Of a stretch of DNA of 39,846 nt, positions 19,881 through 35,187 are shown one piece after another. Origin of the DNA: Rhodoferax sp. OV413 (GTDB taxonomy: Bacteria; Pseudomonadota; Gammaproteobacteria; Burkholderiales; Burkholderiaceae_C); the NCBI GenBank assembly GCA_945861195.1, contig CAMATS010000001.1:1-39846 (forward strand). Reading direction: 5' to 3'. Within the stretch, counting starts at the first letter, position 1. Each line of letters starts with the position of its first letter. The notes beneath the pieces were generated by a model that worked only from the letters and a program-made list of their open reading frames with translations, did no database searches and had not been told where the DNA came from. The position numbers and the translations under genes are program-made.

Positions 19881-20708
19881 TCAATGGCCCCAGATGGGCA
19901 TGTTCAGCCACCAGCCCCACCATTCGGGCCAACCACGGGTCCAGAACGGACCACTGATCACGATGCATAGCGCGGCGAACCACACTGCTGCAAGCGCCAG
20001 GAACAGGCCCAGGCGGTGGATACCCAGTGTGCCGACGGAATAGCCGATGACATCACGGAAAAAAGTGTCTTCGTGCTCGGGCGTTTTGACCACCTCACCC
20101 TTTTTGGGATTGGTCGCCGAGAGCACCAGACCGCCGTGCATGGACAGCGCCAGCACGGTGGCAAAGAACAGGCTTGCCGCGATCATGTGCGCCGGGTTGT
20201 AGTGAAAGTGAAGGTACTGGTAAGCGACATTGCTGACCCAGTCCAGGTGGCTGTAAATGCCATAGGGAAAGGCGTGACCCCAGGCGCCCATCAAGACCGG
20301 GCGAATGACCTGCAGCGTGAAATAGGCAAAGATGGCAAAGCCAAACGCGACTGGCACATGCAAGCCCATGCCCAGTTTGCGAGCGATTTCGACCTCGCGC
20401 AACGCCCAGGAGACAAAGGCGCCTAGCGCGCAAACCGTGATGATTTGCCACAGGCCGCCCTGCATCATGGGTGCAAAACGCAGCCCGTAAGACAGGTCTG
20501 GCGGCGCTATGCTGATTTGCCAGAGGTTCCAGGTGGGGCCGGATGCAGCCCCCCACAAAATCATGGCTGTTCCGACCAGGGTGAAGAAGGCGGTTGTGAC
20601 GCCAAAAAAACCGACATAAAAGGGCCCAGCCCAAAAGTCGAACAGATCTCCCCCGATCAGGGTGCCGCCGCGAACGCGGTATTTTCTTTCGAAACTTAAC
20701 ATCGCCAT
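19881..20708 (-). CDS. pufL: Reaction centre L subunit
   Basis: [35 protein letters not shown] and GIHRLG motifs. GAGGAG RBS. Confidence 0.99.
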
Positions 20709-20771
20709 AGTGGCTCCTCAGACCAACGCACCGTCCCAGCGCGGGTCAGACACTAGATTTTTGTTCAAACA

Positions 20772-20833
20772 GGTGAGCGAAGCGGGCCGGATTGACCCGG
20801 CTTCGCGCACCACTGCGGCTTCAAAAGAAGCCG
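20772..20833 (-). promoter_or_regulatory. pufA-pufL intercistronic hairpins (mRNA stability / partial termination)
   Basis: CGGCTTC-AAAA-GAAGCCG (20816-20833) abuts the pufA stop. A second interrupted stem GGTG.GCGAAGC...GCTTCGC.CACC spans 20772-20811. Same position as the known puf mRNA decay barrier. Confidence 0.7.
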
Positions 20834-21025
20834 TTACTTTGCAGGCGGAAGAGCTGCATTCTGTGCAGCTTTTGCAGCCTTAACCGTGTCCGGGTGCCAA
20901 GTATTGATGTTGTAACGATCGCCACTGATGTGAATCAGGTGGATGCTCGTCGACACAAATGCAATCAGCAGTCCGGTCAGAATGATCGCCTTGCGGGGAT
21001 CAACAATTCGCCAATAACGCCACAT
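20834..21025 (-). CDS. pufA: Core antenna (LH1) alpha polypeptide, divergent
   Basis: MWRYWRIVDPRK N-terminus, TM helix with central His (IHLI), S.DRYN, position directly before pufL, AAGGA RBS. Confidence 0.85.
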   Translation of the reverse strand: MWRYWRIVDPRKAIILTGLLIAFVSTSIHLIHISGDRYNINTWHPDTVKAAKAAQNAALPPAK

Positions 21026-21039
21026 AGTTTTTCCTTAAG

Positions 21040-21264
21040 TTAACTCAGTTGAGATATCACGGTGTAGACGGCAGACTTGACGCTGTCGAGCATGGATCCC
21101 GTACCCTCTGCCCCTGGTAGCCAGGTGCGCCAGTTCATATAGAACAGTTGCCCGATGACCGCCAACAACATGAAGACACAAAAAATCACGACGAAAATCG
21201 TGCCAAACCCATCGAGATGGCTTTGGGGGATTGACGTGTCCGATTGAGCGTGCGAATAAGCCAT
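21040..21264 (-). CDS. 74-aa single-TM protein between pufB and pufA; LH-beta-like but lacking the BChl-ligand His
   Basis: GGAG RBS, one TM helix, WRTWLPG motif resembling the beta WRPWLPG motif. Confidence 0.75.
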   Translation of the reverse strand: MAYSHAQSDTSIPQSHLDGFGTIFVVIFCVFMLLAVIGQLFYMNWRTWLPGAEGTGSMLDSVKSAVYTVISQLS

Positions 21265-21288
21265 GAAACTATCTCCGTGAATGGGTTG

Positions 21289-21432
21289 CTAAAACCAGGG
21301 ACGCCAGATCCACACCAGACTATGCGCAACAAACGCACCCACACCCCACAGCAGGTAACCCTGCACGTAGTACGTGTGAAATTCCTGGCATTCCGCGTCG
21401 GTTAGCCCCGACGGGTTCATACTTTCAGCCAT
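21289..21432 (-). CDS. pufB: Core antenna (LH1) beta polypeptide, 47 aa (absent from the supplied ORF track)
   Basis: Manual translation: [47 protein letters not shown]. Has SGLT..E..EFH and AH.LVW.WRPWF motifs and a GAGGTG RBS. Confidence 0.95.
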
Positions 21433-21467
21433 TTTTAACACCTCACTTCTAATGCCTTGCGGCGACC

Positions 21468-21546
21468 ACCAGGCCTGATAAGGGCCTGGTACGGACCACA
21501 GTCATGCAAGCATGACTGTGACGGAGCACCCCAAACTCACGGGTGC
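21468..21546 (-). promoter_or_regulatory. Three tandem hairpins in the bchZ-pufB spacer (structured puf leader)
   Basis: ACCAGGCC/GGCCTGGT (21468-21490), CACAGTCATGC/GCATGACTGTG (21497-21520), GCACCC/GGGTGC (21526-21546). Confidence 0.55.
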
Positions 21547-21579
21547 ATGCTCGGTAAATCGACATCGTTTGACGACTGC

Positions 21580-23046
21580 TCACGCAGCGACTCCCGCTCT
21601 CGATTGCCCAAACAACTCAAAAAGCCGATCCACTTCAACACTGGAGCGACCGGCTTCACGTGCATCGCGCTCGGCACGATCACGCAATTTTTTTGCTGCC
21701 GAAATACGCACCAGCACCGGCTCGGCCTCGATCAAACGCTCCAGCAGGTCCTGTGCCTCCTGGCCCCAGGGCATGGGCTTGTCAGAGGCGGCACGGCTCA
21801 GCGTGGCGTCGATGCGGTCGAGCTCGGTGCCCAGCGGCAAAATATGAAACAAGGCATCGAACAGTGCGTTGCAAAATTCTTGGATGATGTAGGTTGCGCC
21901 GGCATAGCCCATGAACGGTGTGCCGGTGTGCCGGCGGATGATGGGCAGGGGGAAGGATGCCGGAATAAAGCTGGTCTTCATCATGCCGCCACCGCCGCAC
22001 TCGGCCAGATACATGCGTTCGTTGTAGCTGCCGTACATCACCAACGGTGTTTTTTCGCTGACCAGACGGCGTACTTCGGCGTTGTCGGTTTTGGCACCGG
22101 CCCGCCGGGCGACTGCGAAATTGCAGGGCATGCCCATTTCGTCTTCAAGAAAATGCCGAATGCCCCGGGTGTAGGTCTCATTGGCCACCACTGCAAAGCT
22201 GGCAGTGGCAAAAAAGTCTTGGGTGACCGAGCGCCATAAATCCCAGATCGGTTTGATCGTGCTGTGTTTCTCACGCTCGATAAAAGGTTCGGGGTCGAGA
22301 TTGAGCAACTCGCCCAGGCTGCGCAGAAAGCTCGTGGTGCTGTGCAGTCCGATGGGCGCTTGCAGGTAGGGACGCTCAAGCACCTCGCACAGCATGCGAC
22401 CGAATTCGCGGTACATGCAGATATTCACATCGGCCTCGACCAGCCGCGACACGTCGGCAAGGTGGCTGCCCAGCGGGAACACCATATTGACTTCGGCGCC
22501 AATGCCCTGCACCAAGCGGCGGATTTCGGCCAGGTCGCTGGGCGAATTGAAGGTGCCGTAGCTCGGGCCAATGATGTTGACGCGGGGTTTTTCTTCGGGC
22601 TTGCGCTCGCGCTTTGGCACCTGCTTGATGCCGTACTGTTGCCACAGCCAGTACATCGCGCGGTTGGCGCATTGCCACTGGTCCTCGTCGATGGTTCGGG
22701 GCAAAAAGCGCATCAGGTTGGTACCCTCGGGGGTCACGCCACCGCCAATCATCTCGGCGATCGAGCCGGTCACCACCACGGCTGGCAAATCGGGGTCGAG
22801 CGTGGCATGGGCCCGGCGCATGGCGCCTTCGGTGCCCTCGCGGCCGAGCTGCTCCTCGGCCAGACCGGTGACCACAATCGGCAGTTCGTGCGGCGGCAGG
22901 GCATCGGTGTAGTGCAGCACCGAGGTCACGGGCAGGTTCTCGCAACCCACCGGGCCGTCAATCACCACCTGCAGGCCCTTGATGGCGGTGAACACGTACA
23001 CCGCTCCCCAGTAGCCTCCCGCGCGATCATGGTCAAGAACCAGCAT
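21580..23046 (-). CDS. bchZ: Chlorophyllide a reductase subunit Z
   Basis: [26 protein letters not shown]-terminal PCP_red-like [14 protein letters not shown]. Confidence 0.97.
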
Positions 23047-27991: not shown

Positions 27992-28178
27992 CATCGTCAG
28001 TCAAGTCAAGCGAGTTTTTGATTTTTTTGAAATTTGTTTGTAAAGCTCGCATTCCTGCAGGCGCAGAGCTGCTGCGATGGCGTGATATAAGAAAAGCAAT
28101 GACGACACCAAACCAGCAAACCGTGGCGCAACCGTGGCGCCGCAGCCAGCCCTCAGGCAGCTCAGGAGACATGCTGGC

Positions 28179-28793
28179 ATGCTGCTGCTGAAAAATCTGG
28201 CTTGCATGCGCAGCGGGCGGCGCCTGTTTCAGGGGCTGAGCTGCGAGGTGCCGGCTGGGCAATTGCTGCGGGTGCAGGGCGCCAATGGCGCTGGCAAGAC
28301 CAGCCTGCTGCGGATTATTTGTGGTTTGCTCGAGCCCAGCGAGGGCCAGGCGAGCTGGTGTGGGCAAAGTATTTCGACATTGCAGGAGGACCTTGGCCGC
28401 CAGATGATCTATCTGGGACACGCGGCGGCCCTGAAGGACGACCTCTCCCCCCTGGAAAATCTGCAGGCTGCCAGTGCCTTGGGCGGGCAGGCGCTGAGCG
28501 CTGTTCAGGCGCGCGCGGCGCTGGCAGCGGCTGGTTTGCGTGGTTTTGACAGCACACCGGTGCGCCGCTTGTCGCAGGGGCAGCGCCGCCGCAGCGCGCT
28601 GGCACGACTGGTGCACGGCCACTATGCGGCGCTGTGGGTGCTCGATGAGCCTTTCAATGCCCTTGACACCGGGGCCACCGCCTGGTTGGCTGAATTGGTC
28701 AAGGCCCGCGTTCATGGCGGTGGCGTGGTGGTCTTGACCAGCCACCAGGACGTTGCCGTCGATGTCGCGCAGCAGCAGGTGCTAGCGCTGTGA
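28179..28793 (+). CDS. ccmA: Heme exporter ATP-binding protein CcmA
   Basis: Walker A GANGAGKT, YLGH..ALK, LSQGQRRR, WVLDEPF, LTSHQ. AGGAG before ATG 28179. Confidence 0.93.
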   Translation: MLLLKNLACMRSGRRLFQGLSCEVPAGQLLRVQGANGAGKTSLLRIICGLLEPSEGQASWCGQSISTLQEDLGRQMIYLGHAAALKDDLSPLENLQAASALGGQALSAVQARAALAAAGLRGFDSTPVRRLSQGQRRRSALARLVHGHYAALWVLDEPFNALDTGATAWLAELVKARVHGGGVVVLTSHQDVAVDVAQQQVLAL

Positions 28794-29506
28794 GCGCTAT
28801 GACTCACCCCAAGCAGCCGGCGGCGCTGCCGGTGGGTTTGCTGGCGGCAGTGCAGTGCATTTTTGTCCGCGACCTGCGCCTGGCCCTGCGCCGGCGCGCC
28901 GATAGCCTGTCGGCGATGTTGTTTTTCGTCATGGTTGTGAGTTTGTTTCCGCTGGGTGTGGGGCCAGAGCCTGGTCTGTTGCGCAGCATGGCGCCGGGCG
29001 TGGTCTGGGTTGCCGCGCTGCTGTCGTCAATGCTCTCGCTGAGCCGGCTTTTTGCTGACGACCACCAAGACGGGACCCTGGAGCAATTGCTTTTGGGCGC
29101 CCATCCGCTGGCTTTTTTGGTGCTGGGTAAAATCGCCGCCCACTGGATTGGCTCAGGATTGATGCTGACCCTCATCGCCCCGCTGCTGGCACTGCAGTTT
29201 GATTTGGCTGCCGATGCCTGCGGGGTTTTGGTTTTGTCTTTGCTGCTCGGCACCCCGGTGCTGAGCCTGATTGGCGCCATTGGTGCGGCCTTGACTGTGG
29301 GGCTCAGGGGTGGGAGTGTTTTGTTGTCTTTGTTGGTGCTGCCGCTGGCGGTCCCGGTGTTGGTGTTCGGTGCCGGCGCAGTACAGGCGTATCAGGCCGG
29401 GCTCGGGTTTTCCGCCCATTTTTCGCTGCTTGGTGCTGGTTTGTTGGTGAGTCTGGTGGCCGCGCCTTGGGTGGTTGCGGCCGGGCTCAGGATTGCTTTG
29501 GAGTAG
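28790..29506 (+). CDS. ccmB: Heme exporter permease CcmB
   Basis: RDLRLA.RR, LFPLGVGP, F.DD..DGTLEQL and LPL.VPVLVFG motifs. Confidence 0.93.
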   Translation: MSAMTHPKQPAALPVGLLAAVQCIFVRDLRLALRRRADSLSAMLFFVMVVSLFPLGVGPEPGLLRSMAPGVVWVAALLSSMLSLSRLFADDHQDGTLEQLLLGAHPLAFLVLGKIAAHWIGSGLMLTLIAPLLALQFDLAADACGVLVLSLLLGTPVLSLIGAIGAALTVGLRGGSVLLSLLVLPLAVPVLVFGAGAVQAYQAGLGFSAHFSLLGAGLLVSLVAAPWVVAAGLRIALE

Positions 29507-29557
29507 GTACCCCCAGATGGCCGACTTTGATAGGAAATTTGTCAGGAGGCACCCGGT

Positions 29558-30304
29558 ATGCAACTCGGTGCGGTGAACTGGTTTTATTTTGCTGCCCCAC
29601 AGCGCTTTTATCGGTTGTCAGGGCAGTTGTTGCCCTGGTGCTTCGTGCTGGCAAGCCTGCTTGCGGTCTGGGGCTTGTATATCGGCTTGTGGCTGGCGCC
29701 CACCGATGCGCAACAGGGGGAGGCTTACCGAATCATTTTTGTGCATGTGCCAACCGCCTGGATGTCGATGGTGGTTTATTTGGCCATGGCAGGCTGGGCC
29801 GGCGTGGGTCTGGTGTTTAACTCGCGCCTGGCTTCAATGATGGCCTGCGCACTCGCGCCAACCGGAGCCCTGATGACCTTTCTTGCCCTTTGGACCGGCG
29901 CACTTTGGGGCAAGCCCACTTGGGGCGCCTGGTGGGTGTGGGATGCCCGCCTGACCTCGGAGTTGGTGCTGCTGTTTCTCTATATCGGCTTTATGTCGCT
30001 GCATGCCGCCATTGACGATCCGCGCCGCGCCGACCGTGCCGCCGGCCTGCTGGCTCTGGTGGGCGTAGTCAATGTGCCAATCATCTATTTTTCAGTGAAA
30101 TGGTGGAACACCCTGCACCAAGGAGCCTCGGTCAGCTTGACCAAGTCGCCCAGCATGGCCAGCACCATGCTGCTGGGCATGCTGGTGATGGCGCTGGCCT
30201 GCTGGGCCTACTGCATTGCAGCGGCCCTGCTGCGGGTGCGAAGCATCATTTTGGAGCGTGAGGCCCACACGGCCTGGGTGCAAGATCTGGCGAGGTCTGC
30301 ATGA
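29558..30304 (+). CDS. ccmC: Heme exporter CcmC
   Basis: YRIIFVHVP.AW, WWD domain WGKPTWGAWWVWDARLT, WWNTLHQ. Confidence 0.96.
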   Translation: MQLGAVNWFYFAAPQRFYRLSGQLLPWCFVLASLLAVWGLYIGLWLAPTDAQQGEAYRIIFVHVPTAWMSMVVYLAMAGWAGVGLVFNSRLASMMACALAPTGALMTFLALWTGALWGKPTWGAWWVWDARLTSELVLLFLYIGFMSLHAAIDDPRRADRAAGLLALVGVVNVPIIYFSVKWWNTLHQGASVSLTKSPSMASTMLLGMLVMALACWAYCIAAALLRVRSIILEREAHTAWVQDLARSA

Positions 30305-30486
30305 GCAGTGCCGGCTGGTCTGATTTTTGGCACATGGGCGGCTATGCCCTGTATGTGTGGGGCTCCCTGGGCATGTGTGCTGCAACCCTGCTGATTGAAG
30401 TGCTGTGGCTTGCCCACAGGCAGCGTAAGCTGATTGAGCTGATTTCTGCTGGACCCGATTCTGATGCGGGAGAATCCAGCACATGA
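30301..30486 (+). CDS. ccmD: Heme exporter protein CcmD
   Basis: [11 protein letters not shown] motif, single TM, between ccmC and ccmE with ATGA overlaps. Confidence 0.88.
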
Positions 30487-30908
30487 AACCTAGAAACAAG
30501 CGCGCCCTGGCCATTGTTGCGGCGGTGGCAGCCTTGGGCGGTGCGACCATGCTGGTGCTCAATGCCTTCAACAGCAACCTGGTTTTCTTTTTCAGTCCGA
30601 CCCAGGTTCTGGCCAACGAGGCGCCGCGCGAGCGTAGTTTTCGCATTGGTGGCTTGGTCCAGGAAGGTAGCCTGCAACGCGAGGCGCAGGGCCTGACGAT
30701 CCGCTTTGTCGTCACCGACCTGGCCAAGACCGTGCCGGTCACCTACACCGGACTGCTGCCAGATCTTTTCAAAGAGGGCAAGGGCGTTGTGGCTCAGGGA
30801 AGGCTGGACGCCGATGGCGTCTTTCGGGCCGAGCAGGTGCTGGCCAAACACGACGAAAACTACATGCCGCCGGAAGCCGCCGCAGCACTGAAAAAGGCCA
30901 AGCCATGA
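30483..30908 (+). CDS. ccmE: Heme chaperone CcmE
   Basis: [23 protein letters not shown], heme-binding LAKHDENY. Confidence 0.96.
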
Positions 30909-32929
30909 TTGCTGAATTGGGTCATTTTTCTCTCATCATTGCCTTGCTCATGGCGCTGGTTCAGGGGGTGCTGCCCCTGGCTGGGGCGCACACCGGGCGC
31001 AGTGCCTGGACCGCTTTGGCCCGGCCTGCGGCGCGCGGGCAATTCTTGTTTGTGTTGCTGGCCTATGCCTGCCTCACCCAGGTGTTCATTGCCAATGATT
31101 TCTCGGTGTTGCTGGCGGCCCGGCATTCCAACTCCAGCCTGCCACTGGTTTACCGGATCACGGCAGTCTGGGGCAACCACGAGGGCTCGATCTTGCTGTG
31201 GTCCCTGATCTTGGCCGGTTGGACCCTCGCCGTCTCGATTTTTTCGCGCCAGCTCGATGACACCATGTTGGCCCGGGTGCTGGGGGTTATGGGGCTGGTC
31301 AGCTGCGGCTTCCTGTTGTTCACCCTGTTCACTTCGAACCCGTTTGAGCGCCTGCTGCCCGCTGCCCCGGACGGGCAGGACCTCAACCCCCTGCTGCAGG
31401 ACCCCGGCATGGTGATCCATCCGCCCATGCTGTACATGGGCTATGTGGGCTTTGTGGTGGCCTTTGCATTTGCCATTGCCGCCCTGCTGGCGGGCCGGCT
31501 CGACACTGCATGGGCGCGCTGGTCGCGGCCCTGGACCACCGTGGCCTGGTGTTTTTTGACGGCCGGCATTGCACTGGGCAGCTTTTGGGCTTACTACGAA
31601 CTGGGCTGGGGCGGCTGGTGGTTCTGGGACCCAGTAGAAAACGCCTCCTTCATGCCCTGGCTGGTCGGCACTGCCTTGATCCACTCGCTGGCAGTCACTG
31701 AGAAGCGCGGCGGCTTCAAAATGTGGACCGCTTTGCTGGCCATATTGGCCTTCTCTTTGTCTTTGCTGGGGACTTTCATTGTGCGCTCGGGGGTTTTGAG
31801 CTCGGTCCATGCTTTTGCATCAGACCCGGCGCGCGGCGTGTTCATTCTGGGCTTTTTGTCAGTGGTGGTTGGCGGCTCTCTGGCTCTGTTTGCCTGGCGT
31901 GCGCCCCGGGTGGGCCTGGGGGGCAGTTTTGCGCCGGTGTCGCGTGAATCAATGTTGCTAGCCAACAATGTGCTGCTGGTGGTGGCGGCTGCCGCGGTGC
32001 TTTTGGGCACGCTTTATCCCCTGGTTATTGATGCGCTGGGCATGGGCAAGCTGTCGGTCGGGCCGCCGTATTTTTCGGCTGTTTTTGTCCCGCTCATTGC
32101 GCCCGCCCTGTTTTTGATGGGGGTCGGTCCGATGACGCGTTGGCGCGAGGCCAGTGCCATCGATTTAGCCCGGCGCCTGCGCTGGGCGGCGGCGGTCAGC
32201 CTGCTCAGTGCCCTGATCGCGCCATTTTTTCTGGGCCATTGGACGCCCATGATCGGGCTCGGTTTGCTGCTCGGGGCGTGGGTTGCGAGCACCGCTTTGC
32301 TGAACCTGTTCAGCCGGCTGCGCGAGCATCCGGCACCCGGTTGGGCTGCCCGCTTGGCGGCGCAACCGGGCAGCTACTACGGCATGCTGCTGGCCCATTT
32401 TGGCGTCTCGGTGTTCATTGTCGGCGTCACTGTGGTGAGCGGCTTTTCCAGCGAGAGTGATGTGCGCATGGAGCCCGGCGATGTGGCGCAGGTGGGCGGC
32501 TACAGCTTTGAGCTCAAGGCTGTCAACCCGGTCACCGGGCCCAATTACACCGCCCTGCGCGCCACGGTGGCGGTGTCTATCGACGGCCAGGATCTGGGCC
32601 GGCTCGAGCCGGAGCGCCGTCTGTACCAGGTCAGCCGCATGGCCATGACCGAAGTGGCCATTGACCGCGGACTGCGGCGTGACCTGTATGTGGCCCTCGG
32701 CGAGCCGGTCGGACCGACGGCCTGGAGCGTACGGCTGCACCACAAACCCCTGGTCAACTGGATCTGGGGCGGCTGTGTGCTGATGGCCCTGGGTGGTTTG
32801 CTGGCGGTGATGGACAGGCGCTACCGCACCAGGCGAGTGGCTGCCACCAAGCCCGCTGCGGCCCGAGCCGGCGAGGCTGCTGCGCCGGGCGAGTTGCCGC
32901 TGCTGGTTGGCCGGGGCCAGGTGCCGTGA
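30905..32929 (+). CDS. ccmF: Cytochrome c heme lyase CcmF
   Basis: [41 protein letters not shown] and SVHAF motifs. Confidence 0.97.
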
Positions 32930-33450
32930 AAAGGTATTTGTTGCCACTGCTGGCTTTTCTGGTGTTGGTGGGCTTTTTGGCAGTCGGTTTGCGGCTCAAC
33001 CCGCGCGAGGTGCCCTCGCCACTGGTGAACCGCCCAACCCCAGAGTTCCGCCTGCCCACGCTGGCCGACCCGGCCCAGCAGTTGGCGCCCAAAGACCTGC
33101 TCGGCAAGGTCTGGCTGCTCAATGTCTGGGCCTCCTGGTGCGTGGCTTGCCGGCTTGAACACCCGGTTCTGGTGGACTTCGCCCGTGCCGGCCTGGTGCC
33201 GGTGTATGGCCTCAATTACAAGGACAAGCGTCCCGATGCGCTGGCTTGGCTGGAAAAATTTGGCAACCCCTACCAGCAGTCCTTGCAAGACAGCGACGGC
33301 CTGGCCGGCATTGAACTGGGCGTTTACGGCGTGCCAGAAACCTTTGTGATTGACCGTGCCGGCGTGATTCGCTTCAAGCACATCGGGCCGCTGACCCCGG
33401 AGGTGTTGCGTGACACCATCTTGCCCCTGGTCGGAAAACTCGGTGCCTAA
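32926..33450 (+). CDS. ccmG: Thiol:disulfide interchange protein CcmG/DsbE
   Basis: NVWASWCVACRLEHP thioredoxin motif, GVYGVPETF, N-terminal anchor. Confidence 0.94.
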   Translation: MKRYLLPLLAFLVLVGFLAVGLRLNPREVPSPLVNRPTPEFRLPTLADPAQQLAPKDLLGKVWLLNVWASWCVACRLEHPVLVDFARAGLVPVYGLNYKDKRPDALAWLEKFGNPYQQSLQDSDGLAGIELGVYGVPETFVIDRAGVIRFKHIGPLTPEVLRDTILPLVGKLGA

Positions 33451-33937
33451 GACCGGCTGCCTTGGCTTGCTGGGCGGCGCGTTGCTGCTCGGCTTGGCGC
33501 TGGGCTTGCCGTTGTCCGCCGGGGCCGGCGAGGCCAAGCCGATGGCCAGTGACCCGGCGCTGGAAGCCCGGGTGATGGTGATTGCCGAAGAGTTGCGCTG
33601 CCTGGTGTGTCAAAACGAGACCATTGCCGCTTCAAATGCCGACCTCGCAGTCGACCTTCGGGGGCAGATTCGACAGAAGCTTTCGCAGGGGCAGAGCAGC
33701 CAGCAGATTCTTGATTTCATGGTGGCGCGCTATGGCGATTTCGTGCTCTACCGCCCGCCCCTCAAAGCCAGTACGGTGTTGTTGTGGGTGGGGCCCTTTG
33801 CCCTGCTCCTGCTGGCGGCGGGGGTTTTGATGGTCAATATCCGCCGGCATCGCCAGCATGCTGCCCAGCGCGAGCTTGACCCGGCACAACGCCTGCGCGC
33901 CCGCCAACTGCTAGACCAGACAGGTGGTCCGCCATGA
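33443..33937 (+). CDS. ccmH: Cytochrome c biogenesis protein CcmH
   Basis: LRCLVCQNE..A.SNA.LA.DLR and RYGDFVLY.PP motifs. Start uncertain; GTG 33443 chosen. Confidence 0.92.
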   Translation: MPKTGCLGLLGGALLLGLALGLPLSAGAGEAKPMASDPALEARVMVIAEELRCLVCQNETIAASNADLAVDLRGQIRQKLSQGQSSQQILDFMVARYGDFVLYRPPLKASTVLLWVGPFALLLLAAGVLMVNIRRHRQHAAQRELDPAQRLRARQLLDQTGGPP

Positions 33938-35187
33938 CCCTGCTCGGGCTGCTGGGTCTGGCCCTGCTGTTGCTGGCGCTGGCTATGTTGCTGCCGGCCC
34001 TGTTGCGCAGCCCCCGGCCGGCCCCGACCCAAGCCGGCTCGCTCGCGCCTGAGCCCAACCTGGCCCTGCTGCGCGAGCAAAAGGCCCAGCTTGACGAACA
34101 GCTTGGCAGTGGCGCGATCGGGCCGGCCCAGTATGCGCTGGCCAGCAGTGAGCTCGAGCAGCGGGTGCTTGACGAGGCAGCTCCGGTAACCGCCCCGCCG
34201 AGCCACGCCGGGGGGGACCGCCGCAGCGCCCTGCTGTTGGGCCTGGTGCTGCCGCTGCTGGCGCTGGCCTTGTACGGCTGGTTGGGTCAGCCGCAGGCGG
34301 TTCTGCCGCCAGAACTGCAGGCAGGCGCGGCGGCTGAGCCCACCCAGGCCCAGGTTGAGGCCATGGTGGCGCAACTTGCCAAGCGGCTCGACGAGCTGCC
34401 AAGCGGGCAGCCGCCCGACCCCCAGGCCTGGGAGATGCTGGCCCGCGCCTATGCCTCTTTGCAGCGTTTTGAGGAGTCCAACCGGGCCTATATCCGGGCC
34501 GGTGAACTCGCGCCGCGCAATGCCCAATTGCTGGCTGACCATGCCGATGTGCTGGCCATGGTGCAGGGCCAGAGTGCTGCCGGTGAGCCCACCCGCCTGA
34601 TCGAGCGGGCGCTGGCGATTGACCCGAAAAACCTCAAAGCCCTGGCGCTAGCCGGGACCGCCGCGCTGCAGCGGCAAGACCCGGGGGCAGCGGTGGCTTT
34701 TTGGTCCCGCGCGCAGGCCTTGGCGCCGCCTGACAGCGAGTTCGCGGCCGGGCTGGCGAGTAGCCTGGATGTGGCGCGCGCGCAGTTGCTGGCCGCAGCC
34801 CCCAAGGGCTCCCGGCCTGCCGCGAGCGCGCCAGCAGCGCCGGCCTTGGCCATTAGCGGCACGGTCAGCTTGGCGCCGGCGCTGGCGGCGCAACTGGCAG
34901 CCAGCGACACCGTGTTTGTGTTTGCCCGTGCGGTGCAGGGCTCGCGCATGCCCCTGGCCATCCTCAAATTCAAAGCCAGTGAGTTGCCCCGTGCATTCAC
35001 GCTCGATGACAGCAGCGCCATGTCCCCAGATCTCAAGCTCTCGGGCGCCGGGCAGGTGATGCTGGTGGCGCGGGTGTCGCGCTCGGGCAACGCCATGCCG
35101 CAAGCGGGCGACCTGACTGGCGAGCTGGGGCCGGTCAAACCCGGCTCCCCCGGGCTGCGTTTGGTTATCAACAGCGTTCAGCCCTGA
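33934..35187 (+). CDS. ccmI: Cytochrome c biogenesis TPR protein CcmI/CycH
   Basis: Two N-terminal TM segments, LY..LG.P, TPR-like region, C-terminal VFVFARA...MPLA...F.LDDS.AM domain. Confidence 0.88.
   Translation: MTLLGLLGLALLLLALAMLLPALLRSPRPAPTQAGSLAPEPNLALLREQKAQLDEQLGSGAIGPAQYALASSELEQRVLDEAAPVTAPPSHAGGDRRSALLLGLVLPLLALALYGWLGQPQAVLPPELQAGAAAEPTQAQVEAMVAQLAKRLDELPSGQPPDPQAWEMLARAYASLQRFEESNRAYIRAGELAPRNAQLLADHADVLAMVQGQSAAGEPTRLIERALAIDPKNLKALALAGTAALQRQDPGAAVAFWSRAQALAPPDSEFAAGLASSLDVARAQLLAAAPKGSRPAASAPAAPALAISGTVSLAPALAAQLAASDTVFVFARAVQGSRMPLAILKFKASELPRAFTLDDSSAMSPDLKLSGAGQVMLVARVSRSGNAMPQAGDLTGELGPVKPGSPGLRLVINSVQP

What the first reader, a model, noticed from the sequence alone, without database searches (positions are those of the whole stretch)
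21040..21264. His-less LH-beta paralogue inserted between pufB and pufA
Seen: AVIGQLFYMNWRTWLPG aligns without gaps to beta [15 protein letters not shown]. Gln sits at the His0 position and W+6, R+7 and W+9 are kept. It also has a 24-aa amphipathic C-terminal extension and its own GGAG RBS, so it lies on the abundant, hairpin-protected pufB-A message. Known: pufBA are normally adjacent, and extra single-helix subunits (PufX, protein W, gamma) open or remodel LH1 rings. Inference: a third, probably pigment-free antenna subunit derived from beta, such as a quinone gate or ring spacer. Similar ORFs may exist unannotated in other betaproteobacterial puf operons; I could not check.
Basis: partly seen in the sequence, partly recalled or inferred. 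Interest (0 to 1): 0.75.

Follow-up and report, generated by a model that had tools for sequence, protein, structure and literature searches.

The report
Histidine-less antenna beta copy keeps tail
A real, conserved small gene between the two core-antenna genes encodes a copy of the beta subunit that lacks the pigment-binding histidine but keeps the tail missing from the neighbouring beta gene, so it likely helps assemble the antenna; a gene in the same place was already reported, with unknown function, in related bacteria.

Summary
The ORF (21040-21264, minus strand, 74 aa) is real: it has an RBS, dN/dS of about 0.14, and lies between pufB and pufA in 77 of 80 related loci. It is a paralogue of long-form LH1 beta with Gln at His0. 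It is not a new gene. By position and length it matches ORF74 of Roseateles and ORF2 of Rubrivivax, both of unknown function, and this scan reported it twice before on other genomes. The 'extension' is the ordinary long-beta tail. What this work adds is a pattern in 96 Burkholderiales puf operons: 78 have a tail-less pufB plus this gene, 13 have a tailed pufB without it, and 5 have a tail-less pufB plus an upstream His-less paralogue. None has a tailed pufB with it, and none has a tail-less pufB alone. This points to duplication with division of labour: PufB kept the pigment ligand and this copy kept the tail. Best reading (0.45): a pigment-poor LH1 assembly aid. The quinone-gate reading is untested (0.2). 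A weak profile link to PufQ (about 52%) is the bold lead.

The parts
21040..21264 (-). 74-aa His-less LH1-beta paralogue (ORF74/ORF2 type)
21273..21276 (-). GGAG ribosome-binding site, 8 nt before the ATG
   Evidence: sequence
21124..21225 (-). residues 14-47: predicted long helix containing the transmembrane segment (peak 19-residue hydropathy 2.9 from residue 23)
21148..21150 (-). Gln39 codon at the His0 position; Gln in 107 of 111 close homologues, His in none of them
21043..21117 (-). residues 50-74: PGAEG turn and amphipathic helix (58-73 in the model), homologous to the tail of long-form LH1 beta precursors
21289..21432 (-). pufB, short form: 47 aa, keeps His0 and His-18, stops one residue after the WRPW motif (no tail)
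20834..21025 (-). pufA, LH1 alpha; divergent, Ile at the Trp+11 position
20770..20833 (-). two RNA hairpins downstream of pufA, likely the 3' end of the short pufB-ORF-pufA message
   Evidence: z -5.8; role inferred from known puf operons
21433..21580 (-). bchZ-pufB intergenic region with hairpins; no pufQ or other upstream paralogue here
19881..20708 (-). pufL (context)
21580..23046 (-). bchZ (context)

Best explanation
The gene encodes a 74-residue paralogue of long-form LH1 beta that lacks the His0 ligand but keeps the C-terminal tail absent from the adjacent PufB, and it likely arose by tandem duplication and likely acts as a pigment-poor helper in LH1 assembly rather than as a light-harvesting subunit. 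Shown: homology, position, loss of His0 and His-18, selection on helix and tail, and the complementary distribution of tail and gene. Inferred: an ancestral tailed pufB duplicated; the first copy kept the bacteriochlorophyll ligands and lost the tail, while the second lost the ligands and kept the tail. Inferred mechanism: made from the same message as alpha and beta, it inserts like beta with the tail helix lying on the periplasmic membrane face. There it supplies in trans what a beta precursor's tail does in cis, for example steering insertion or early alpha-beta pairing, and it is then displaced by true beta. The retained Ala-4, Gln0 and Trp+9 could make a weak, transient pigment site.
For: Homology; position-selected profiles against long beta 99.6% over 75 columns. 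Selection: dN/dS 0.136, against 0.132 for pufB and 0.108 for pufA; 0.131 for the tail alone (pairs are not independent). Order-level draw, 44 operons including this one: 34 short pufB + gene, 6 long pufB without it, 3 short + upstream paralogue, 1 short + upstream copy of this type. Family-level draw, 52 readable of 53 fetched: 44, 7 and 1 (two pufB that end in WRSWL counted as short). Long pufB together with this gene: 0 of 96. Short pufB alone: 0 of 96. All 79 pufB genes next to close homologues end one residue after the PW. A tail profile of this family scores 6 of 6 Burkholderiales long-beta tails at z 8-14 (0 of 200 shuffles each). On a quick pufLM tree the short+gene state needs 4 changes, 3 of them forced by well-supported branches. 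The short betas fall in two groups, 31 and 4 rows, which hints that the tail was lost more than once beside this gene. Roseateles ORF74 is co-transcribed on the major 1-kb pufBA message and co-regulated (PMC10037100 passages and Table S1).
Against: No experiment shows any function, and the role of the beta tail itself is not established. Outside Burkholderiales the pattern breaks. Short pufB stands with no paralogue in the stretch read in 3 of 23 phylum-draw genomes, 1 of 9 class-draw genomes and 1 of 6 plasmids, so the tail can be dispensable. An upstream His-less paralogue sits beside a tailed pufB in 8 of 23, 3 of 9 and 1 of 6, so such paralogues are not merely tail substitutes. Genomes are related and photosynthesis clusters move sideways, so 96 operons are only a few independent events. 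The trees are quick trees on few columns. One member (L209) has His at position 0.
Confidence: 0.45

Rival explanations
1. It is a permanent, low-copy subunit of mature RC-LH1 that takes a beta position without pigment and opens a quinone gate or sets ring size.
For: It has a beta-like helix and WRxW motif and lies on the pufBA message in Roseateles. PufX and protein-W keep LH1 rings open (PMC10214105 passages).
Against: No similarity to PufX (0.3%, two sequences) and no PufX, W or gamma chain in the PDB hits. A gate does not explain why the gene tracks loss of the pufB tail. Closed rings work without a gap. Recalled and unverified: the purified Rubrivivax core complex held no extra polypeptide and about 16 alpha-beta pairs.
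Confidence: 0.2
2. It works like PufQ: a small membrane regulator made with the antenna message that steers porphyrin towards bacteriochlorophyll, perhaps by binding ferrochelatase.
For: Same size and layout as PufQ (single helix plus conserved C-terminus; PMC5725709). hhalign to PufQ gives 52.7% (E 1.4e-4), above the beta-alpha control (20.7%) and above all 40 column shuffles. ESM Atlas neighbours include clusters in which 16% and 11% of members carry PF05398. No PufQ was found in this 83% complete genome.
Against: No PF05398 match for the protein or for 24 relatives. The PufQ match covers only the first 41 columns, PufQ tails score at chance against this family's tail, and long beta against PufQ is 0.6%. 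It is not in the pufQ position. Column shuffling destroys the membrane block, so that control is lenient.
Confidence: 0.2
3. It is an outer accessory helix that binds carotenoid or a weakly held bacteriochlorophyll through Gln and tunes or stabilises LH1, working like the gamma chains.
For: Gln0 in 107 of 111 close homologues, 69 of 80 loci and 29 of 35 order-level members. Ala-4 in 34 of 35; Trp+9 kept in most.
Against: Position 0 is also Ser, Thr, Leu, Met, Gly, Cys, Lys, Arg or His in other members. Roseateles LH1 absorbs at an ordinary 873 nm (PMC12654162 table).
Confidence: 0.1
4. It is a decaying duplicate with no function.
For: It has lost both histidines and falls below the Pfam and NCBIfam cut-offs.
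Against: dN/dS 0.136, near-constant length of 74 aa, and retention across 8 families of the order.
Confidence: 0.02

Closest known systems
ORF74 of the Roseateles depolymerans puf operon (RD2015_RS05155) and ORF2 of Rubrivivax gelatinosus
   Same: Position between pufB and pufA; 74 residues by name for ORF74; ORF2 was reported to lack the conserved His when aligned with alpha chains; function unknown.
   Different: I could not obtain their sequences, so orthology rests on position, length and order-wide conservation. The 2025 paper compared ORF2 with alpha chains, not beta. I recall, without certainty, that the 1994 paper may already have noted a beta resemblance.
Long-form LH1 beta precursor (PufB; PF00556, NF040862; e.g. 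7xxf_B, 8z81_B)
   Same: Homologous over the helix, the WRxW motif and the whole C-terminal tail.
   Different: His0 is Gln and His-18 is lost; the N-terminus has diverged; below the family cut-offs.
Unnamed His-less ORF between bchZ and pufB (called 'FAFMG type' here; e.g. THSYN_RS31365 of Ca. Thiodictyon and an ORF in Methylobacterium aquaticum)
   Same: Also a His-less, tail-bearing beta relative: 96.5% to this family, 95.4% to long beta.
   Different: Lies upstream of pufB, often beside a tailed pufB, and its tail mostly does not match this family's tail profile.
PufQ (PF05398) of Rhodobacterales
   Same: Size, single helix, conserved amphipathic C-terminus, puf operon, always beside a tail-less pufB (9 of 9 genomes, 3 of 3 plasmids); weak profile match.
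   Different: No Pfam match, different position, no WRxWxPG motif, tail not alignable.
PufX, protein-W and LH1 gamma chains
   Same: Small extra membrane proteins linked to RC-LH1.
   Different: No sequence similarity found; they are shown in structures, this protein is not.

Membership tests
LH1 beta (PF00556 / NF040862) | Reaches the family model cut-off | tested here: not met
   No LHC or pufB match at E up to 10; some relatives match LHC weakly, best E 0.0017.
LH1 beta (PF00556 / NF040862) | Detectable homology to beta chains | tested here: met
   phmmer E 1.7e-9; profile E 4.7e-14; hhalign 99.6%.
LH1 beta (PF00556 / NF040862) | His0 ligand to bacteriochlorophyll | tested here: not met
   Gln39; His in 0 of 111, 0 of 80, 0 of 35 and 1 of 44 relatives.
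LH1 beta (PF00556 / NF040862) | His-18 | tested here: not met
   Gly here; Arg in 94 of the 107 close homologues long enough to score.
LH1 beta (PF00556 / NF040862) | Single membrane helix followed by Trp+6, Arg+7, Trp+9 | tested here: met
LH1 beta (PF00556 / NF040862) | Pairs with alpha and binds bacteriochlorophyll in the ring | not testable with these tools
   Needs biochemistry or a structure.
ORF2/ORF74 of Burkholderiales puf operons | Lies between pufB and pufA, about 74 codons | tested here: met
ORF2/ORF74 of Burkholderiales puf operons | Sequence orthology to the named Roseateles and Rubrivivax proteins | not testable with these tools
   Their sequences were not returned under a name; records titled 'Rubrivivax sp.' carry the gene at this place.
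ORF2/ORF74 of Burkholderiales puf operons | Co-transcribed with pufBA | tested here: inconclusive
   Contigs of 4 of 4 RNA runs laid cover the ORF and one spans pufB and the ORF, but contigs show no single transcript and no silent-stretch control was laid.
PufQ (PF05398) | Matches PF05398 | tested here: not met
PufQ (PF05398) | Gene between bchZ and pufB | tested here: not met
   The gene lies after pufB.
PufQ (PF05398) | Remote homology by profile | tested here: inconclusive
   39.6%, 52.7%; Atlas clusters with 11-16% PufQ members.
PufQ (PF05398) | Binds ferrochelatase and shifts haem/bacteriochlorophyll flux | not testable with these tools
   Needs pull-down and deletion analysis.
PufX / protein-W / gamma ring modifiers | Sequence similarity | tested here: not met
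   PufX 0.3% with two sequences; none among the PDB hits.
PufX / protein-W / gamma ring modifiers | Present in purified RC-LH1 | not testable with these tools
   No structure of this protein among the PDB sequences searched.

The most novel reading that the evidence does not exclude
This gene, the unnamed upstream 'FAFMG' ORF and PufQ are all His-less descendants of the tailed LH1 beta precursor. The beta helix plus tail is an old signal that couples antenna-protein synthesis to bacteriochlorophyll supply or insertion, and it was repeatedly split off onto a separate gene, after which pufB could drop its tail. PufQ would then be a repurposed antenna subunit, and most purple bacteria said to lack PufQ would carry a hidden counterpart.
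Probability: 0.2. Interest if true: 0.72.

Novelty: new member of a known kind. Interest (0 to 1): 0.42.

Why it matters
The gene is the usual state in phototrophic Burkholderiales (78 of 96 operons read), including freshwater groups seen in lake metagenomes, yet it is annotated as hypothetical or mislabelled as a working beta chain. The split between tail and ligand turns two old unknowns, what ORF2/ORF74 does and what the beta precursor tail is for, into one direct test: delete the gene and rescue with a tailed pufB. If the PufQ link holds, it explains where a tetrapyrrole branch-point regulator came from.

Tried and rejected
1. Pfam and NCBIfam scans of the ORF gave only unrelated weak hits.
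2. The Foldseek search of the model (mean pLDDT 66.5, pTM 0.35) gave no match at E <= 0.001; the single row was an LH1 beta at E 1.2, which is uninformative.
3. Complex prediction of the family with this genome's ferrochelatase gave no answer (score 0.10, mark 0.32). It is used neither for nor against binding.
4. Charge counts on the two sides of the helix did not settle topology, so N-in/C-out is assumed from beta.
5. Read-through of the DNA after short pufB genes that lack this ORF showed no recognisable tail remnant in 9 loci, judged by eye.
6. The first hhalign table used sets picked by this family's own profile and was biased, so it was redone with sets picked by genomic position. Alignment A2 contains one true His-bearing beta (P0207) by mistake; it was removed for but stayed and 74/85.
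7. The pufLM tree is the quick tree; 11 of 66 rows lack pufM and G619 was left out.
8. RNA contigs cannot rank expression.
9. The promoter scan found nothing.
10. Dropped before counts: L250 (contig ends before pufA) and G1034 (pufL at contig start, not fetched). In the 80 loci, L026 and L051 end after the ORF, and L077 has unrelated DNA right up to the ORF start, probably a misassembly.
11. Only 80 of the 105 loci found, 150 of 157 proteins and 120 of 241 were returned.
12. An alpha origin was rejected (12.4% against 99.6%).
13. Papers not held: PMID 8300574, PMC123868, PMC5734016. PMC5374385, PMC11724841, PMC7423801 and PMC8564508 were searched by passage and said nothing on this ORF.

Full report
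OBSERVATION. The window is a photosynthesis gene cluster. On the minus strand it reads bchZ (21580-23046), pufB (21289-21432), the ORF (21040-21264), pufA (20834-21025), pufL, pufM and pufC. The ORF has 74 codons and a GGAG 8 nt before its ATG. In ungapped register with PufB, Gln39 replaces His0, and Trp+6, Arg+7 and Trp+9 are kept; identity is only 7 of 47. Pfam and NCBIfam do not recognise it, but they do recognise PufB and, below cut-off, PufA. RNA hairpins flank the block (z -5.8 and -3.7; 0 of 200 shuffles each).

IT IS A REAL GENE. A protein search gave 111 relatives among 111 candidates, most of them 74 residues long. A genome scan found 105 loci and returned 80, titled as Comamonadaceae, Polaromonas, Rhodoferax, Limnohabitans, Rubrivivax and related records. 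Of these 80, 77 read pufB-ORF-pufA, 2 end after the ORF, and 1 looks misassembled. Pooled pairwise dN/dS is 0.136, against 0.132 for pufB and 0.108 for pufA, and 0.131 for the tail alone; the pairs are not independent. Contigs from 4 of 4 RNA runs laid cover it, which shows presence in RNA libraries, not a transcript.

WHAT IT IS RELATED TO. The best solved-structure hits are long-form LH1 beta chains, aligned through the tail (7xxf_B E 1.7e-9, residues 8-73; profile E 4.7e-14). With sets chosen by genomic position, hhalign gives 99.6% to long beta, 96.8% to short beta, 96.5% to an unnamed His-less ORF found between bchZ and pufB in other lineages ('FAFMG type', my label), 52.7% to PufQ and 12.4% to alpha. 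Long beta against alpha gives 20.7%, and long beta against PufQ 0.6%. Position 0 is Gln in 107 of 111, 69 of 80 and 29 of 35 relatives with no His, and His in 1 of 44 in a further draw. His-18 is lost. The model has helices at 14-47 and 58-73 with modest confidence, and the tail is amphipathic (moment 0.39). I recall that this tail is removed from mature beta in several species; the short deposited beta chains (52-55 residues, beside a 65-residue form) fit that but do not prove it.

IT IS ALREADY ON RECORD. PMC10037100 (passages and Table S1 rows) lists ORF74, RD2015_RS05155, between pufB and pufA of Roseateles depolymerans. It is co-transcribed on the major 1-kb puf message and among the most induced genes. 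PMC12817894 (passages and section 8) describes ORF2 upstream of pufA in Rubrivivax gelatinosus as of unknown function; it compared ORF2 with alpha chains and found the conserved His lacking. JGI/IMG names many members 'light-harvesting complex 1 beta chain'. Two earlier notes of this scan reached the same identification on other genomes; I had reached it before looking. I could not align to the named Roseateles or Rubrivivax proteins, and the 1994 and 2002 primary papers were not held.

THE PATTERN THAT POINTS TO A MECHANISM. I read the stretch upstream of pufL in genomes drawn without regard to this gene. In the order draw, 43 of 401 genomes had pufL, including this one, and one more came. 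Of these 44, 34 have a tail-less pufB followed by this gene, 6 a tailed pufB (26-28 residues after the PW) without it, 3 a tail-less pufB with an upstream FAFMG-type ORF, and 1 a tail-less pufB with an upstream copy of this type. In the family draw, 57 of 361 had pufL; 53 new loci were fetched and 52 were readable: 44, 7 and 1. In all, 0 of 96 combine a tailed pufB with this gene and 0 of 96 have a tail-less pufB alone. The tail of this family matches the tails of those Burkholderiales long betas closely (6 of 6 at z 8-14), alphaproteobacterial long-beta tails less (z 1.8-8, 10 tested), and FAFMG and PufQ tails mostly at chance. On a quick pufLM tree the state needs 4 changes, 3 of them forced by strong branches. 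On a short-protein tree, 34 members form one group (support 91) and the tail-less betas fall into groups of 31 and 4; these trees have few columns. The simplest reading is tandem duplication followed by division of labour.

RESULTS AGAINST. Outside the order, none of 32 genomes had this gene between pufB and pufA, and the complementarity fails in both directions. In the phylum draw (23 genomes): 9 PufQ + short, 8 FAFMG + long, 2 long only, 3 short only, and 1 with no pufB in the stretch. In the class draw (9): 4 FAFMG + short, 3 FAFMG + long, 1 long only, 1 short only. On plasmids (6): 3 PufQ + short, 1 FAFMG + long, 1 FAFMG + short, 1 short only. Only the local stretch was read, so a paralogue elsewhere in those genomes is not excluded. 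Related genomes are not independent.

MECHANISM. Best reading (0.45): a pigment-poor pseudo-beta, translated with alpha and beta, that supplies the precursor tail in trans during LH1 insertion or early assembly and is not a light-harvesting unit. Every functional step is inference; LhaA, BchG and YidC are the known assembly context (PMC10214105 passages). Rivals: a permanent ring gate or spacer (0.2; nothing here supports it beyond beta likeness, and a recalled, unverified purification argues against it); a PufQ-like regulator (0.2; PMC5725709 abstract and passages; weak profile and Atlas links, but no Pfam match); a gamma-like outer helix (0.1); no function (0.02).

NOVELTY. The gene is known and uncharacterised, so this is a new member of a known kind. 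I did not find the tail/gene complementarity or a beta origin for PufQ in nine full-text searches (listings only, except for the papers named) or in a word search of this scan's notes. Most subscription papers, including the primary ones, were outside the library, and the supplements of PMC5725709 and PMC12817894 were not read. Interest 0.42: not a surprise as a gene, but the pattern gives a direct test of two long-open questions.

Noticed in passing
window 20834-21025 (-), pufA: LH1 alpha lacks the usual Trp+11: Ile here, with a Trp three residues later. The same holds (Ile or Leu) in 72 of 72 alphas beside close homologues, while 30 of 35 ORF-bearing operons in the wider draw keep Trp. Removing that hydrogen bond shifts Rba. 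sphaeroides LH1 to 853 nm (PMC10214105), so this freshwater clade may have a blue-shifted or rewired LH1. It is clade-specific and not tied to the ORF.
   Followed up: partly
L102:1460-1684, L098, L131, L134, L135, L147-L151, L160, L186-L188, L229-L236, L242: An unnamed His-less beta relative sits between bchZ and pufB, the pufQ position, in many alpha-, beta- and gammaproteobacteria. Its profile links long beta (95.4%) and PufQ (52.5%).
   Followed up: partly
L209 (G924): One member of the family has His at position 0: a possible reversion or retained ligand.
   Followed up: no
L170 (G767): A copy of this type lies upstream of pufB instead of downstream, and its frame runs on about 30 residues past the usual end.
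   Followed up: no
L144, L169, L171, L183: The short pufB here still closely resembles long-type beta in its core, as if the tail was lost recently beside this gene.
   Followed up: partly
genome G000: No second antenna gene pair (LH2 pucBA) and no pufQ were found in the 83% complete assembly.
   Followed up: partly
window 28134-35187: A run of genes resembling cytochrome c maturation (ccm) genes lies inside the cluster, between a crtE-like gene and bchO/bchD/bchI-like genes (names from my own knowledge of these families, not from a family scan).
   Followed up: no
L077:1100-1540: DNA unrelated to the puf operon runs up to the ORF start with no pufB upstream; probably a misassembled contig.
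   Followed up: partly
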